IMG/VR virus record: IMGVR_UViG_3300025010_000048 | Span: 8,331 to 72,330 of that record | Length of the DNA: 64,000 bases | Source: a virus | Reading direction: 5' to 3' (one strand) | Part shown: piece after piece, positions 41,244 to 45,225 of the stretch | Layout: every line of letters starts with the position of its first letter | Position numbering within the stretch: the stretch's first letter is position 1 | Notes under the pieces: generated by a model | Told to the model about the DNA's origin: nothing | What the model saw: the letters and a program-made list of their open reading frames with translations, nothing else | Databases searched by the model: none | Made by a program: the position numbers and the translations under genes

Positions 41244-41643
41244 ACCAACAGTATACCTTTCCGGTAAAATGGCCGGTTTGAGTAAAGAAGAAATGAACGA
41301 CTGGAGAGAGAAAGCGGCGGGAGACTTAGTTGAGGCAGGTTTTTGTATACTTAATCCGGTAAATACCGACTTCGGAAGCAATGTAACCGATAGGGAAATC
41401 ATTGACAGTAACGACTATCAGATTGGACACAGTGACATTATCCTTGCTGAGTTAGACTATGAGCAAATTTCCATCGGTACAATTTGCGAGATTGTGGAGG
41501 CGAGAAGGCAAGGTAAACCCGTAATAACATGGGGTACTGCCTATAACATCATCAATCATCCGCATATTCGGGGCAGGATTACTAGACACTTTGAGTTTTT
41601 GGTCAATGCCGTTCAGTACATTATCGAAAACTATTACTTGTAG
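41236..41643 (+). CDS. Nucleoside 2-deoxyribosyltransferase family protein
   Basis: VYLSG.M...D...SD...SIGT..E...A...GKPV. Confidence 0.8.
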   Translation: MRRPTVYLSGKMAGLSKEEMNDWREKAAGDLVEAGFCILNPVNTDFGSNVTDREIIDSNDYQIGHSDIILAELDYEQISIGTICEIVEARRQGKPVITWGTAYNIINHPHIRGRITRHFEFLVNAVQYIIENYYL

Positions 41644-41984
41644 GAGGTTATGTATTGCTAGAATTATTTGACAAAGCACTACTTTATACAACTGTATGTT
41701 TAACCTGCTTGCCGTGGATTGTCGTTATTATAATAGGCATTAGGGGCGGTAAAGTAACTGTTGAGTTTGGGAGAAATAATAAGGAGGCAACCACAAATGC
41801 CAAAACAGAAACGCCACAAACAACCTAAGCTGAAAATCATAGTTGACCTGCCCAATGACGGCAACCGGAAATGGTACGACGAGAAGTATCGGAATATGTT
41901 CCGGGATCGCAGGGGAGTTTTGCTGCACGACTATAGGGACGGAATGTCGCCGGGGTATTGCGTGGCAGCGGTGGAGGTATTTAA

Positions 41985-43895
41985 TTGATTAACGAATTAA
42001 TAATGGGATCGCTATTTGACGGAGTTGCAATGCTCCCTTTTGCAGCAGAACTTAACGGAATTAGAGCAGTGTGGGCCAGTGAGATAGAAAAGTTCCCGAT
42101 AGCGGTAAGTAAACACCATTTCCCTGACATGAAGCACTTGGGAGATATTTGTGGCATAGGATTATGTACTTACATTACACATTTTAGCGGAACTAAGTGT
42201 AATTTTTATATAAACACAGCTAAAGACATTCTGGTTAAACCAGTAGATATAATCACATTTTCAAGCCCTTGTCAAGATTTGTCAGTCGCCGGTAAAAGGG
42301 CAGGTTTGGCGGGAGAGCGTTCTGGTTTGTTTTCTGAGGCGGTAAGAATCATAAAAGAAATGAGGTTTGTCACAGATGAAATGTACCCAAAATACGCAAT
42401 CTGGGAGAACGTACCAGGAGCATTTAGCTCAAACAAAGGACAAGATTTTAGAACCGTGCTTGAAGAAATCACAGCGTCCGAAATTCCAATGCCTAAGTCT
42501 GGAAAATGGGCAAACGCCGGAATGGTCAGAGGGGATGGGTATAGTGTTGCTTGGCGAGTCTGTGATGCGCAATACTGGGGAGTCGCCCAGCGTCGTAAGA
42601 GAATCTTCCTTGTCTGCGATTTTAGAGGACAACGTGCCGGAGAAATACTTTTTGAGTGCGAAAGCGTGTCAGGGGATTTTGCGGAGAGCGGAGAAGCGAG
42701 GCAAGAAGTTGCCGGGAGTGCTGGAAATGGCATTGAGACAACAATCAGGATATTTGACATTGGAGATAGACGCAGAGTCGCAGACGAGTCAGTAGGCGTA
42801 ACACCTACACTGACAATGAAAATGGGTACGGGTGGAAATAATGTCCCCGTAATTTTAAAGCGAGATACAATAGCCTTTAACGGCAGACAAGACCCTGTTT
42901 ATGGACAAGTTACCGGGGCGCTTGATACCGATCGAGCGACACAGTGCATTGCATACCCTGAACCTGCAAACGCTCTTCTCGCAAAAGGTAATCTGTCATA
43001 TCGTGCTGATGTAGATAATTTAGTTTGTGCTGTAGATATCCGCAACCTTTACGAAACTGAGGAATTAAGTGAAACGCTGCAATCCAAGCAAACAGGTGGT
43101 TACTCACTTAACTATCAAAATCCTGTCAGGGTTCCGATTGGAGGAATTAATTATGGCAATGCCGACAAAACCAACGCCAGAGAAATATTGTTCGCACTGT
43201 GGCGAGAAATTGGAACGGAAGCGTTTTGCAAATGGGCGGTTAGAGTCGTTGAATACTTTCAACAAAAGGGAATACTGCAACCAGAAATGTATGGCGAAGG
43301 GGTTCGAGAGCAAACCGAAACCGAGATCGGAAAACTGGGAAACGAATCATTCCAGATCGAGAAAAATTGTTCCACCGGGTCCTTGCGAAATATGCGGAAA
43401 ACCGAATGCTTTAGATGTACACCACAAAGACGAGGATTGGACAAACAACGAACCAGAGAATCTTCAAAGGATTTGTCGGAGTTGTCACAACTTAAAGCAC
43501 AGGCAGAGAAAGCGTTGCGCCATTTGTGGGGAAGTAGCAAAGGGTTATGGATTATGTACAAAGCACTTACAGAGATACAAGAAGCACGGAGATCCGATGA
43601 TAGAAAGGATAAATCCGAGGAAGAAATGCAAAGTATGCGGAGAACCTGCTCACTCGAAAGAGCTTTGTGGGATGCACTATATGAGAGCGAAAAGAGCAGG
43701 GAGCCTGTAAGATATGCGGTGAGACGACTCCTACCCCTGGAATGCGAGCGACTGCAATCGATGCCGGACGGTTGGACAGATATCCCCGATGCATCCGATA
43801 CAGCACGATACAAAGCAATCGGAAATTCGCTTGTGATGAATATAGCTGATTGGATATTTAGTCAGATAGTAAAGGCAGAGAAAGGAGAACTCTAA
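41985..43895 (+). CDS. DNA (cytosine-5) methyltransferase with in-frame insertion
   Basis: SLFDG, SPCQD, ENVPG, QRRKR, ECERLQ, YKAIGNS motifs. Confidence 0.9.
   Translation: MINELIMGSLFDGVAMLPFAAELNGIRAVWASEIEKFPIAVSKHHFPDMKHLGDICGIGLCTYITHFSGTKCNFYINTAKDILVKPVDIITFSSPCQDLSVAGKRAGLAGERSGLFSEAVRIIKEMRFVTDEMYPKYAIWENVPGAFSSNKGQDFRTVLEEITASEIPMPKSGKWANAGMVRGDGYSVAWRVCDAQYWGVAQRRKRIFLVCDFRGQRAGEILFECESVSGDFAESGEARQEVAGSAGNGIETTIRIFDIGDRRRVADESVGVTPTLTMKMGTGGNNVPVILKRDTIAFNGRQDPVYGQVTGALDTDRATQCIAYPEPANALLAKGNLSYRADVDNLVCAVDIRNLYETEELSETLQSKQTGGYSLNYQNPVRVPIGGINYGNADKTNAREILFALWREIGTEAFCKWAVRVVEYFQQKGILQPEMYGEGVREQTETEIGKLGNESFQIEKNCSTGSLRNMRKTECFRCTPQRRGLDKQRTRESSKDLSELSQLKAQAEKALRHLWGSSKGLWIMYKALTEIQEARRSDDRKDKSEEEMQSMRRTCSLERALWDALYESEKSREPVRYAVRRLLPLECERLQSMPDGWTDIPDASDTARYKAIGNSLVMNIADWIFSQIVKAEKGEL
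42367..42795 (+). CDS. Alternative-frame ORF inside methyltransferase (possible beta subunit)
   Basis: LSAILEDNVPEKYFLS resembles the post-motif-VIII segment of C5 MTases. Confidence 0.55.
   Translation: MSQMKCTQNTQSGRTYQEHLAQTKDKILEPCLKKSQRPKFQCLSLENGQTPEWSEGMGIVLLGESVMRNTGESPSVVRESSLSAILEDNVPEKYFLSAKACQGILRRAEKRGKKLPGVLEMALRQQSGYLTLEIDAESQTSQ
43153..43710 (+). CDS. HNH endonuclease overprinted within methyltransferase gene
   Basis: Own GGAGG RBS; CEICG...VHHKDED..NN..ENL...C..CH plus zinc fingers. Confidence 0.85.
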   Translation: MAMPTKPTPEKYCSHCGEKLERKRFANGRLESLNTFNKREYCNQKCMAKGFESKPKPRSENWETNHSRSRKIVPPGPCEICGKPNALDVHHKDEDWTNNEPENLQRICRSCHNLKHRQRKRCAICGEVAKGYGLCTKHLQRYKKHGDPMIERINPRKKCKVCGEPAHSKELCGMHYMRAKRAGSL

Positions 43896-44221
43896 TGAAA
43901 AACAAAACCACAAAACTACTCCTAACTTTAGGGGTACCGCCGGAAACATCCGGTTATTTATACGCAAGAGAAGCAATCTTACTAACCCTAAATACCCCGA
44001 ACTCCTCATACCGTTGGTGCGAAACCTACGACAAGGTAGCGGAAAAATTCAGCACCACCGGCAAGAGAGTTGAAAGATGTATCCGTCATACACTCAAGAA
44101 AACGCAGGAAAGCGGAACTGTAGAATATGTTGAAATGTTTTATAAGAACACAACTAAACCACCTATTGTAAGTCGCTTTTTAGCTACAGTTGCCGAGTAT
44201 CTAAAAATGCAGGATAGTTAG
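43895..44221 (+). CDS. Spo0A C-terminal DNA-binding domain protein (no receiver domain)
   Basis: LGVP....GY.Y.REAI...VAEKF.TT..RVERCIRH. Confidence 0.85.
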   Translation: MKNKTTKLLLTLGVPPETSGYLYAREAILLTLNTPNSSYRWCETYDKVAEKFSTTGKRVERCIRHTLKKTQESGTVEYVEMFYKNTTKPPIVSRFLATVAEYLKMQDS

Positions 44222-45225
44222 TCAGTTAGAATCGGAAATAACAGCAAAATTAGCCTTGTACAGGCGACTAAATATTGCAGGAATAGTTTCGTACCTGCTG
44301 TCGTGAATGGGGCGTAGAAGGGGGTTTAAAATGCCACCATTGAAAAGGGTTTTATTGAAAGAAGAACTGGAATACATGAAGCAATGGGGAGGTAAAGCAT
44401 CACTCTCCAATATTGGAGTAAATTTACTAATGTCCGAGCAACAACTAGGCGCATATATGAAAAAACACGGCATACCGAGGGCTAATAAGGGTGCTAGACA
44501 CCTTGCCGCGCCTGATAAATACGAAGGACCAACATCTTATGTGCAGAGAGGAAAGGACAATAGATTCGTGAATCTTTTTTCTAGGCAGAGAATCGAAGGA
44601 AATATTAGACCGCCAGATAAACCCTGGAGCATGGAAGAAAGTTTCGCTAATCCGATAGTATGTGTGAGCGCAACCGCAGGCGTTATGATTTGGCGAAATA
44701 GTGGCAAGGGTGAGTGTCTATGATTAGGGTTAACGACACAGTAAAACCTCTCCGTGGTCGCAATAAGGACAAGGAGGGCGAGGTAAGGTCGGTATATAAA
44801 AGCGGAAAATGTTATATTTACTTCGGTAAAAGTAACTATAATTCTTATTTTCCGAGAAATTTGGAGGTGGTAACAGGTGGGGAGAGGCGGGGCGAGGATT
44901 AAGAAGTTAGAGCGCGATAACAAAATATTACTTAAGATAGTTTCTGAACATGCTGTTTCCATTTCTGATATTTCTCGCAGATTAGATGGTTATGCTGTGC
45001 TGTTTAAAACACTAATAAACGATATGACAACAGCAGGAAATAACGGGAAAACACTTCAATCAGACATTGCATTTCTGAATAAGAAGTTGGACGAAATTGA
45101 ATGTTCCGTTGCCGCATTGAGAGCAGAGCAGGATCATGCGAGGCGTGGATTGTGGAGAAGGTTTTGCGCTAGGGTTAGGTTGTTTTTCGTGTGATGGATT
45201 ACCTTTTTAGGTATAATATGTATAG

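What the first reader, a model, noticed from the sequence alone, without database searches (positions are those of the whole stretch)
43122..43711. HNH endonuclease overprinted inside a C5 methyltransferase without breaking its frame
Seen: a 582-bp (194-codon) segment bounded by CCTGTCAG / CCTGTAAG (both PVR in the MTase frame) lies between ...YSLNYQNPVR and YAVRRL..ECERLQ. It encodes a complete HNH in another frame with its own RBS, yet has no stop in the MTase frame. No intein termini or group I core motifs are visible. Inference: a splicing-independent homing element tolerated as a junk loop in the variable region, a third way for a homing nuclease to live inside a gene.
Basis: partly seen in the sequence, partly recalled or inferred. 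Interest (0 to 1): 0.75.

Follow-up and report, generated by a model that had tools for sequence, protein, structure and literature searches.

The report
Hidden HNH gene inside phage methylase
A phage cytosine-methyltransferase gene carries a 576-base mobile insert that encodes an HNH nuclease in a second reading frame while the methylase frame stays open, which is a further example of an arrangement first published in 2025 for mycobacteriophages.

Summary
ORF 41985..43895 (636 aa) is a C5 DNA methyltransferase. Nested in its +1 frame is an HNH ORF (ATG 43153, TAA 43708-43710) behind GGAGGA. Close relatives read ...NPVRVG|YAVRRL... without the insert, so the net insertion is 576 bp.

HNH-based searches, blind to the host frame, gave 34 loci. 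All have the same frame relation and no internal stop in the host frame. The host frame is kept open by synonymous choice. T occurs at the HNH wobble once in 1448 places where it would make a host stop, against 886 of 3673 elsewhere. In the window this is 0 of 70 against 38 of 114, with 18.6 stops expected.

The read-through peptide shows no conservation of its own, and no intron or intein signature was found.

The kind is already published as the "ShiLan domain" (PMC11855218). This is a new member, in C5 methylases. The read-through peptide matches 1259 protein clusters at E<=1e-10. Splicing, HNH cleavage and methylase activity remain untested.

The parts
41985..43895 (+). Whole C5 DNA methyltransferase ORF (636 codons), open through the insert
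   Evidence: PF00145, E 2e-39, three stretches. Alignment A1 with insertion-free homologues.
41985..43133 (+). Upstream host part: catalytic motifs (SSPCQDLS, ENVPG, QRRKRIFLV) and the variable target-recognition region, ending ...YQNPVRV
   Evidence: Translation and alignment. The motif names are recalled C5-methylase nomenclature. The AF2 model is confident for residues 1-220.
43122..43133 (+). Left copy of the imperfect repeat (CCTGTCAGGGTT). This is host sequence, also present in empty alleles.
43134..43712 (+). Inserted element: 579 nt that replace one Gly codon, for a net gain of 576 nt. In the host frame it reads PIGG...EPVR.
   Evidence: Empty alleles L054, L057 and others. Contigs of a metagenome run join 43132 to 43761 (52 other letters between) and 43133 to 43759.
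43140..43145 (+). Shine-Dalgarno-like GGAGGA, 7 nt upstream of the HNH ATG. It reads as Gly-Gly in the host frame.
   Evidence: GGAG or GAGG lies at -17..-5 in 16 of 28 non-redundant loci, against 10.7% of background windows.
43153..43710 (+). Nested HNH endonuclease gene (185 aa) in the +1 frame of the host: N-terminal zinc ribbon, HNH core, then two C-terminal CxxC...CxxH modules
   Evidence: The Cys/His/Asn residues are invariant in 26 homologues. AF2 mean pLDDT is 84.2.
43704..43715 (+). Right copy of the imperfect repeat (CCTGTAAGATAT). It contains the HNH stop TAA (43708-43710).
43713..43895 (+). Downstream host part: motif IX (YAVRRLLPLECERLQSMPDGW) and motif X (YKAIGNS), in frame with the upstream part
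   Evidence: V579, R580, R581, L582, P584, E586, R589, L590, P594, D595, W597, G613, N614 and S615 are invariant in invaded and empty homologues alike. AF2 pLDDT is 81-91.

Best explanation
The element is a selfish HNH endonuclease gene that entered the phage's C5 methyltransferase gene just upstream of motif IX. It is not removed by splicing.

Two proteins would be read from the same 576 bases. Ribosomes that start at the methylase start codon read straight through, giving a 636-aa methylase with a roughly 190-residue hydrophilic, poorly structured loop between the target-recognition region and motif IX. Ribosomes that start at the internal GGAGGA-ATG (43153) read the +1 frame and make the 185-aa zinc-ribbon/HNH nuclease.

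Because each host codon consists of the wobble base of one HNH codon plus the first two bases of the next, host-frame stops can be avoided purely by synonymous choice: no T-ending HNH codon before AA, AG or GA. That is what is seen.

Shown here: the anatomy, presence or absence among close relatives, the recurrent identical frame relation, selection for an open host frame, and the lack of independent constraint on the loop peptide.

Inferred: that the full-length methylase is made and works, and that the HNH spreads by cutting empty alleles so that repair copies it in (homing).
For: - Pfam assigns both frames.
- Empty alleles read ...NPVRVG|YAVRRL... in 8 of the 18 loci L054-L071, and none of the 18 holds the HNH or the insert peptide. 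Some of these loci are the same contig found in two collections.
- Contigs of a metagenome run bridge the insert.
- Frame-blind retrieval with the HNH protein gave 32 full-length loci including the window and 2 more in bacterial genomes. In all 34 the HNH lies in the host's +1 frame with no internal host stop. In L009 the only stop is the host's own terminator. The third frame has 0-15 stops.
- 30 of 32 host ORFs are PF00145.
- T at the wobble occurs once in 1448 stop-risk dicodons against 886 of 3673 elsewhere. Stop-free draws made up 0-1.3% of 1000 resamplings per locus.
- Host-frame peptide identity in 257 divergent pairs is 0.213 observed against 0.201 simulated.
- The HNH frame folds confidently (pLDDT 84.2), while the insert in the host frame does not (26-57).
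- The motif IX/X residues downstream stay invariant in invaded alleles.
- Carriers are scattered on the methylase tree: 9 changes for 12 carriers among 119 rows, against 11-12 with shuffled labels.
- There was no Rfam match in the window at E<=1 or in 20 related loci at gathering score.
Against: - No RNA or protein data exist. No RNA run holds the stretch, so splicing is excluded only by inference.
- HNH cleavage and its target are untested.
- Rfam models do not cover every intron type.
- In some relatives the methylase is broken upstream of the insert: L050 is read in three frames, and L012 is shifted relative to the intact L011. Protein P0001 starts in another frame and carries a second insert. 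60 of the 146 new top profile hits are short ORFs that lack the N-terminal motifs. The host gene therefore does decay in some lineages, or those are contig fragments.
- The 34 loci are not phylogenetically independent. L020/L021, L023/L024 and L026/L027 gave identical or nearly identical figures, and L010/L011 are very close.
- Wobble G is enriched over flank codon usage in most of the 26 loci compared. This hints at some weak composition constraint on the loop, so 'junk' may be too strong.
Confidence: 0.8

Rival explanations
1. The insert is a self-splicing group I or II intron, or a derived one, that carries an HNH ORF. It would be removed from the mRNA, so the open host frame is irrelevant.
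For: HNH genes are common intron passengers (recalled knowledge). The start of the insert resembles the sequence at its 3' side (CCTGTCAG / CCTGTAAG). The ShiLan authors also noted this as intron-like (PMC11855218, section 3.1).
Against: There were no Rfam matches at E<=1 in the window or at gathering score in 20 related loci. The net length is a multiple of three. All 34 loci keep the host frame stop-free by a synonymous bias that splicing would make pointless. The HNH ORF fills nearly the whole insert, leaving about 30 nt for any ribozyme core.
Confidence: 0.05
2. The insert is an unusual intein or is otherwise excised from the protein after translation.
For: It is read in frame with the host and sits next to conserved residues, as inteins do.
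Against: The host-frame peptide has no Hint or intein Pfam domain. It begins V/P and is followed by Tyr, not Cys/Ser/Thr, and has no terminal His-Asn. The nuclease lies in another frame. The host-frame peptide has no conservation of its own and low fold confidence. A real intein does occur in the same methylase family for contrast: P0024, with precomputed PF14890 and PF13403.
Confidence: 0.02
3. The segment is a resident, vertically inherited methylase domain on which an HNH gene was overprinted. It is no longer mobile, and the HNH may be domesticated.
For: The arrangement is old and widespread: the read-through peptide matches 1259 protein clusters at E<=1e-10. In several loci the HNH ORF has lost its usual stop and runs into host sequence (L003, L025-L031, L050).
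Against: Methylases of 71-78% identity lack it. Its distribution on the tree is scattered. It sits at three different insertion sites in different methylase subfamilies. The host-frame peptide is not independently conserved.
Confidence: 0.05
4. The nuclease and its host methylase work as a pair: the methylation protects DNA from the nested HNH. This would be a compact restriction-modification-like or exclusion module, not, or not only, a homing element.
For: The association with methylase genes is exclusive: 30 of 32 host ORFs and 77 of 78 long profile hits are PF00145. It holds across three insertion sites. Distant relatives sit in a non-C5 methylase (Applejack).
Against: No direct evidence. 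Related HNHs sit in methylases that differ widely in sequence, which a methylation-matched nuclease would not easily follow. The presence/absence pattern fits simple homing. In L050 and L012 the methylase is broken while the HNH ORF is intact.
Confidence: 0.08

Closest known systems
ShiLan domain: hidden out-of-frame HNH in mycobacteriophage DNA methylase gp65 (Arsenault, Gosselin and Gogarten 2025, PMC11855218; first noted in PMC9957025)
   Same: - The insert is present or absent among related methylases.
- There are no stops in the methylase frame.
- The HNH ORF starts a few codons into the insert and its TAA lies in the insert's last bases.
- The product has a zinc ribbon, an HNH core and a further zinc ribbon.
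- No intron or intein signature is detectable.
- The host-frame product folds poorly.
- One end of the insert resembles the flank.
- The nested HNH of phage Applejack shows the same +1 frame relation and no host stops (simulated mean 5.4, P0 0.004).
   Different: - The host here is a C5 cytosine methylase (PF00145). Applejack's methylase carries a DPPY motif, which I recall as the mark of N6/N4 amino-methylases; I did not run Pfam on it.
- The phage comes from groundwater or sediment metagenomes, not from an actinophage collection.
- The HNH is only 29% identical over 110 aa (pairwise E 2e-6; database E 1-8).
- It has an ATG with a clear Shine-Dalgarno. The paper reports GTG, no ribosome-binding site, and proposes leaderless initiation.
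- I did not examine ShiLan's own sequence.
Pacc40 gp60 insertion (same paper, section 3.6)
   Same: It is a second, unrelated out-of-frame putative HNH inside a methylase with an open host frame. The counterpart here is a second nested HNH_3 gene in locus L003 (1400..2056, Pfam E 8.9e-7). There the methylase frame is the HNH's +1 frame and has no stops, against 10.5 simulated.
   Different: It is a different nuclease lineage at a different site, and it is not present in the window.
Intron-encoded and intein-encoded homing endonucleases (for example I-HmuI, named in the paper's Table 1)
   Same: An HNH nuclease gene sits inside a conserved gene next to conserved motifs, with sporadic distribution.
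   Different: There is no ribozyme or Hint domain, and the host product keeps the insert.
Free-standing homing endonuclease genes, intronless homing, and gene-splitting insertions such as mobE in Aeromonas phage Aeh1 nrdA
   Same: A nuclease gene with its own start signal and no splicing apparatus.
   Different: Those lie between genes or split the host gene into two polypeptides. Here the host frame runs through.
M.EcoHK31I alpha/beta (PMC2836561, passages read)
   Same: It is a precedent for a second functional ORF encoded in another frame inside a C5 methylase gene.
   Different: The beta chain is a methylase subunit carrying motif IX, not a nuclease or a mobile insert. It is relevant to the +1 ORF at 42367..42795 (see Noticed in passing), not to the HNH.

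Membership tests
ShiLan-type hidden HNH insertion in a phage methylase (PMC11855218) | Insertion present in some and absent from other closely related methylases | tested here: met
ShiLan-type hidden HNH insertion in a phage methylase (PMC11855218) | No stop codon in the methylase frame across the insertion | tested here: met
   True of 34 of 34 loci. Beyond chance by resampling.
ShiLan-type hidden HNH insertion in a phage methylase (PMC11855218) | HNH ORF in another frame, starting near the 5' end of the insertion and stopping in its last bases | tested here: met
   ATG 43153 lies 20 nt into the insert, and TAA 43708-43710 lies 2 nt from its end.
ShiLan-type hidden HNH insertion in a phage methylase (PMC11855218) | No detectable intron or intein | tested here: met
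   Rfam searches and Pfam on the host-frame peptide. These are computational only.
ShiLan-type hidden HNH insertion in a phage methylase (PMC11855218) | Sequence homology of the nuclease to the ShiLan HNH | tested here: inconclusive
   29% identity over 110 aa to Applejack's nested HNH, pairwise E 2e-6. The family profile hits it at E 1.5e-8. tblastn E-values are 1-8. ShiLan itself was not fetched.
HNH endonuclease (Pfam PF01844) | Profile match above the curated cut-off, with the His/Asn/His and Cys ligands | tested here: met
   25.5 bits against a cut-off of 21.4. H90, H91, N99, N103, H112, H116 and eight Cys are invariant in 26 sequences.
C5 DNA methyltransferase (Pfam PF00145) | Profile match, with catalytic motifs upstream and motifs IX and X downstream of the insert in one frame | tested here: met
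Intein | Hint fold, Cys/Ser/Thr at the first residue and at +1, terminal His-Asn | tested here: not met
Group I or II intron | Ribozyme core (covariance-model match) | tested here: not met
   Rfam does not cover every intron, so a derived intron is not strictly excluded.
Group I or II intron | Splicing of the RNA | not testable with these tools
   No RNA run holds the stretch.
Homing endonuclease | Cleavage of the empty allele and copying of the element into it | not testable with these tools
   Only the scattered distribution and the empty alleles speak for it.

The most novel reading that the evidence does not exclude
The nested HNH and its host methylase form a functional pair: the methylase's modification shields DNA from the HNH. 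The nesting would then be a two-in-one restriction-modification-like exclusion module that recombination cannot separate, and this would explain why this nuclease family is found only inside methylase genes. More broadly, phage C5 methylase genes may be a hot spot of layered coding. The window's gene also holds a conserved +1 ORF over motifs VI-VIII (42367..42795) that may be an EcoHK31I-beta-like chain.
Probability: 0.1. Interest if true: 0.8.

Novelty: new member of a known kind. Interest (0 to 1): 0.45.

Why it matters
It shows that the splicing-free way of carrying a homing nuclease inside a gene is not a mycobacteriophage curiosity. I found it described only for actinophage methylases. 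The read-through peptide alone matches 1259 protein clusters at E<=1e-10, nearly all C5 methylases where checked (77 of 78).

The codon-level signature gives a simple, general test that the host frame is translated through such inserts, and a way to find further cases. That signature is no T-ending HNH codon before AA, AG or GA, seen only once in 1448 at-risk places.

For annotation, gene callers report only the long methylase ORF and miss the nuclease. The Staphylococcus phage CUB-EPI_14 record is an example.

The clear Shine-Dalgarno here offers a simpler expression route than the leaderless initiation proposed for ShiLan.

Tried and rejected
- RNA evidence: the look-up of sequencing runs listed no RNA holder, so expression and splicing could not be examined.
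- The contig of P0001, which carries the second insert, could not be obtained. A metagenome scan with P0001 returned only 8 insertion-free relatives.
It was repeated with the closer A4.
- PDB sequence search with the HNH profile found no hit at E<=0.01. Foldseek on the HNH model found no match at E<=0.001. The most relevant weak row was phage GVE2 HNH 5H0M (E 0.1, probability 0.87).
- The AF2 model of the whole methylase is too uncertain in residues 225-575 to say where the loop points.
- Hydropathy of the loop peptide against wobble-resampled controls: the observed peptide is slightly less hydrophilic (mean z +2.5). I rejected this as evidence for a selected soluble loop.
- The first resampling script crashed on a wrong start coordinate and was corrected.
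- Rows dropped: only the 32 of 46 hit loci whose match spans the family profile from position <=11 to >=115 were analysed. In one search, 26 representatives of the 32 were used, and. In one search, P0001 was left out. In one search, 78 of the 86 hits of 430 aa or more were scanned because of a size limit.
- Supplements of the papers were not available and not requested. The ShiLan authors' repository alignments could bear on the homology question.
Full report
**1. The observation**

The window is most of a 72,330-base IMG/VR virus record. ORF 41985..43895 (+) has 636 codons and matches Pfam PF00145, C5 cytosine methylase, at E 2e-39 in three stretches. A second ORF in its +1 frame runs 43069..43710. 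Its ATG at 43153 lies 7 nt behind GGAGGA (43140-43145). The 185-aa product matches Pfam HNH at E 1.4e-5, 25.5 bits against a cut-off of 21.4.

The HNH stop TAA (43708-43710) lies inside the second one. The host-frame translation of the segment matches no Pfam family; the best was E 0.11. An Rfam scan of 41500-44500 at E<=1 found nothing.

**2. Where the insert begins and ends**

Of the 120 best methylase homologues listed, 13 carry the host-frame insert peptide, including the window's own protein. Five insertion-free proteins aligned with it are 71-78% identical to the window's methylase. Two of them, P0009 and P0014, read ...YQNPVRVG|YAVRRL... where the window reads ...YQNPVRV[PIGG...EPVR]YAVRRL....

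At the DNA level the empty allele is ...AAT CCT GTC AGG GTA GGT TAC GCA.... The window's left junction is ...AAT CCT GTC AGG GTT CCG ATT GGA GGA... and its right junction is ...GAG CCT GTA AGA TAT GCG.... So 579 nt (43134..43712) stand where the empty allele has one Gly codon, a net gain of 576 nt or 192 codons.

None of the 18 related loci L054-L071 holds the HNH or the insert peptide. Fourteen of them show an uninterrupted ...YxVRRL junction, and eight read NPVRVGYAVRRL. Several of these are the same contig seen in two collections.

In a groundwater metagenome run that also holds the window's sequence, contigs of related alleles (roughly 85-90% alike) join 43132 to 43761, with 52 other letters between, and 43133 to 43759. 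Joints at this likeness in metagenomes are other strains, not excision products.

**3. The arrangement recurs**

A tblastn search with the HNH protein, which ignores gene calls and the host frame, found its best phage match inside the annotated methylase gp45 of Staphylococcus phage CUB-EPI_14 (47.7% identity). Scans of IMG/VR and of bacterial genomes added more loci. Taking the matches that span the family profile gives 32 loci including the window (32 of the 46 loci with any hit). Two prophage-like loci, in a Peptococcaceae MAG (70% identity) and in Virgibacillus proomii, bring the total to 34.

In all 34 the HNH lies in the +1 frame of a much longer open frame with no stop inside the HNH span. 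The one stop, in L009, is the host ORF's own terminator, because there the HNH ORF runs on past it. The remaining frame has 0-15 stops. Thirty of 32 host ORFs are PF00145.

Three insertion sites are used. The first is just before motif IX (window, L001, L003, L004, L010-L015). The second is just after motif IX (L016, L018, L019, L022). The third is before motif X in short methylases (L005, L009, L017, L020-L035).

**4. The open frame is selected**

With this frame relation, a host codon is the wobble base of one HNH codon plus the first two bases of the next. A host stop therefore arises only when a T-ending HNH codon precedes AA, AG or GA.

Over the 32 loci there are 1448 such places, and T occurs at the wobble once (L009's terminator). 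Elsewhere T occurs at 886 of 3673 wobble positions, or 24%. In the window the figures are 0 of 70 against 38 of 114. With the gene's own codon usage 18.6 stops are expected, and the probability of none is 6e-12. In resampling, stop-free draws were 0-1.3% of 1000 per locus. The third frame has as many stops as simulated, or more.

The loci are not independent. L020/L021, L023/L024 and L026/L027 gave identical or nearly identical figures, and L010/L011 are very close. The per-locus figures stand on their own.

Such a bias has no purpose unless ribosomes must read through the insert to reach motifs IX and X. Those motifs remain invariant in invaded alleles. This is the main argument against RNA splicing. 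It is an inference, not a measurement.

**5. The loop peptide itself**

The read-through peptides look conserved by eye (REIL..L..EIGE.AF..W...LQ..EIL; CSPQ.R.L.EQ). I resampled only the wobble bases, keeping the frames stop-free. For 257 pairs with HNH identity below 0.5, host-frame identity is 0.213 observed against 0.201 simulated (mean z 0.47). The excess in closer pairs is what unsaturated synonymous sites would give. So the apparent motifs are shadows of the HNH sequence. The host-frame Gly-Gly, for example, is the Shine-Dalgarno.

The AF2 model of the methylase is confident for residues 1-220 and 575-636, but has pLDDT 26-57 across the insert, drawn as long helices. The HNH frame folds at mean pLDDT 84.2 from only 26 sequences.

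One weak contrary hint: wobble G exceeds flank codon usage in most of the 26 loci compared.

**6. Expression of the nuclease**

Thirty-one of the 32 HNH ORFs listed start with ATG at the family's first residue; L032 has no start there. GGAG or GAGG lies at -17..-5 in 16 of 28 non-redundant loci, against 10.7% of background windows. Independent initiation inside the methylase message is therefore the likely route. How it competes with elongating ribosomes is unknown.

**7. Mobility**

On a FastTree of 119 methylase homologues, 12 carry the insert, and these need 9 changes of state. Shuffled labels need 11-12. For this tree the insert residues were removed and P0001 was left out. Together with the empty alleles and the three insertion sites, this fits repeated gain or loss. 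Cleavage of empty alleles is not shown.

**8. Counter-examples and decay**

L050's methylase is read in three frames, and L012 is shifted relative to the intact L011. Both breaks lie upstream of the insert. P0001, which is 100% identical in the insert, starts in the +1 frame and carries a second, paralogous insert farther upstream. Its contig could not be fetched.

A profile of 17 read-through peptides found 2002 cluster representatives at E<=1e-3, 1259 at E<=1e-10 and 437 at E<=1e-30 among 1.84 billion. Of the 146 new top hits, 86 are 430 aa or longer and 60 are shorter and lack the N-terminal motifs. The short ones may be fragments or broken hosts. Of 78 long ones scanned, 77 are PF00145.

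**9. What is known**

The kind is in print. Arsenault, Gosselin and Gogarten (Genes 2025, PMC11855218; I read the abstract, sections 1, 3 and 4, and the legends and tables) describe the ShiLan domain of mycobacteriophage methylases. It has no stops in the methylase frame and a hidden HNH that starts 18 bp into the insert, with TAA in its last four bases. They found no intron or intein, and the host-frame peptide folds poorly.

That text does not contain the words cytosine, C-5 or synonymous. It proposes leaderless initiation for lack of a ribosome-binding site. PMC9957025 (2023) and the Applejack announcement PMC12613952 were seen only as search listings and abstract starts. Searches for further reports found none.

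Applejack's nested HNH has the same +1 relation and no host stops (simulated 5.4, P0 0.004). It is 29% identical to the window's HNH over 110 aa (pairwise E 2e-6).

The window's element is therefore a new member of this kind. It sits in a different methylase class, in a phage from a different habitat, has a clear Shine-Dalgarno, and belongs to a much larger family than was reported.

**10. Verdict**

Novelty is limited by the 2025 paper.

Noticed in passing
window 42367..42795 (+), +1 frame of the methylase: A 142-codon ORF overlaps methylase motifs VI-VIII. The open run is 143 codons, and resampling gives P 0.019. The same frame is open for 114-260 codons in most related C5 methylase loci and encodes ...SLS.ILE..VP.RYFLSAKAC.GILRRAEKRGK.LP.... 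In 25 divergent pairs, the 40 codons after motif VIII are better conserved in this +1 frame (0.70) than in the methylase frame (0.53). The 25 codons before it show the reverse, 0.51 against 0.72. The peptide has no Pfam family. It may be an EcoHK31I-beta-like chain, since RYFLSAKACxGIL resembles motif IX. M.EcoHK31I's beta chain is encoded in another frame of alpha (PMC2836561, passages).
   Followed up: partly
L005 503..1246 and L009 1373..2497: In short methylases whose main frame lacks motif IX, another frame holds a long ORF with WPTP repeats that ends in LNPxxxxWLMGFPxxW (motif IX-like), directly upstream of the nested HNH. It has no Pfam match. It looks like an EcoHK31I-type alpha/beta layout. 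The 548-aa methylase ORF of Komagataeibacter phage phiKX1 is not annotated as one gene.
   Followed up: partly
L003 1400..2056: The same methylase ORF holds a second, unrelated nested endonuclease gene (Pfam HNH_3, E 8.9e-7). The methylase frame is this gene's +1 frame and has no stops, against 10.5 simulated.
   Followed up: yes
L003 1035..3839 (= P0060): This 934-aa methylase ORF starts after motif I and ends with a motif-I-like segment (...LGSLFDGLAGFPLAG...WASEIE...). This suggests either a circularly permuted methylase or a run-on into a second gene.
   Followed up: no
protein P0001 (689 aa): A near-identical relative carries a second, paralogous read-through insert at residues 126-282. 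Its called ORF starts in the +1 frame of the methylase.
   Followed up: partly
window 41996..43894: A contig in another groundwater run joins 41996 to 43894 with 12 other letters between. This is a related phage that lacks the whole methylase gene.
   Followed up: no
protein P0024 (905 aa): A homologue of the same methylase carries precomputed intein domains (PF14890, PF13403), so this gene family hosts inteins as well.
   Followed up: no
L002 1501..2743 (Clostridium phage Saumur) and L050 1861..2866: In both, the methylase reading frame shifts at a run of Gly codons (GGGG in the two translations), which splits the gene into two overlapping ORFs. This could be a sequencing error, a phase-variable tract or decay.
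   Followed up: no
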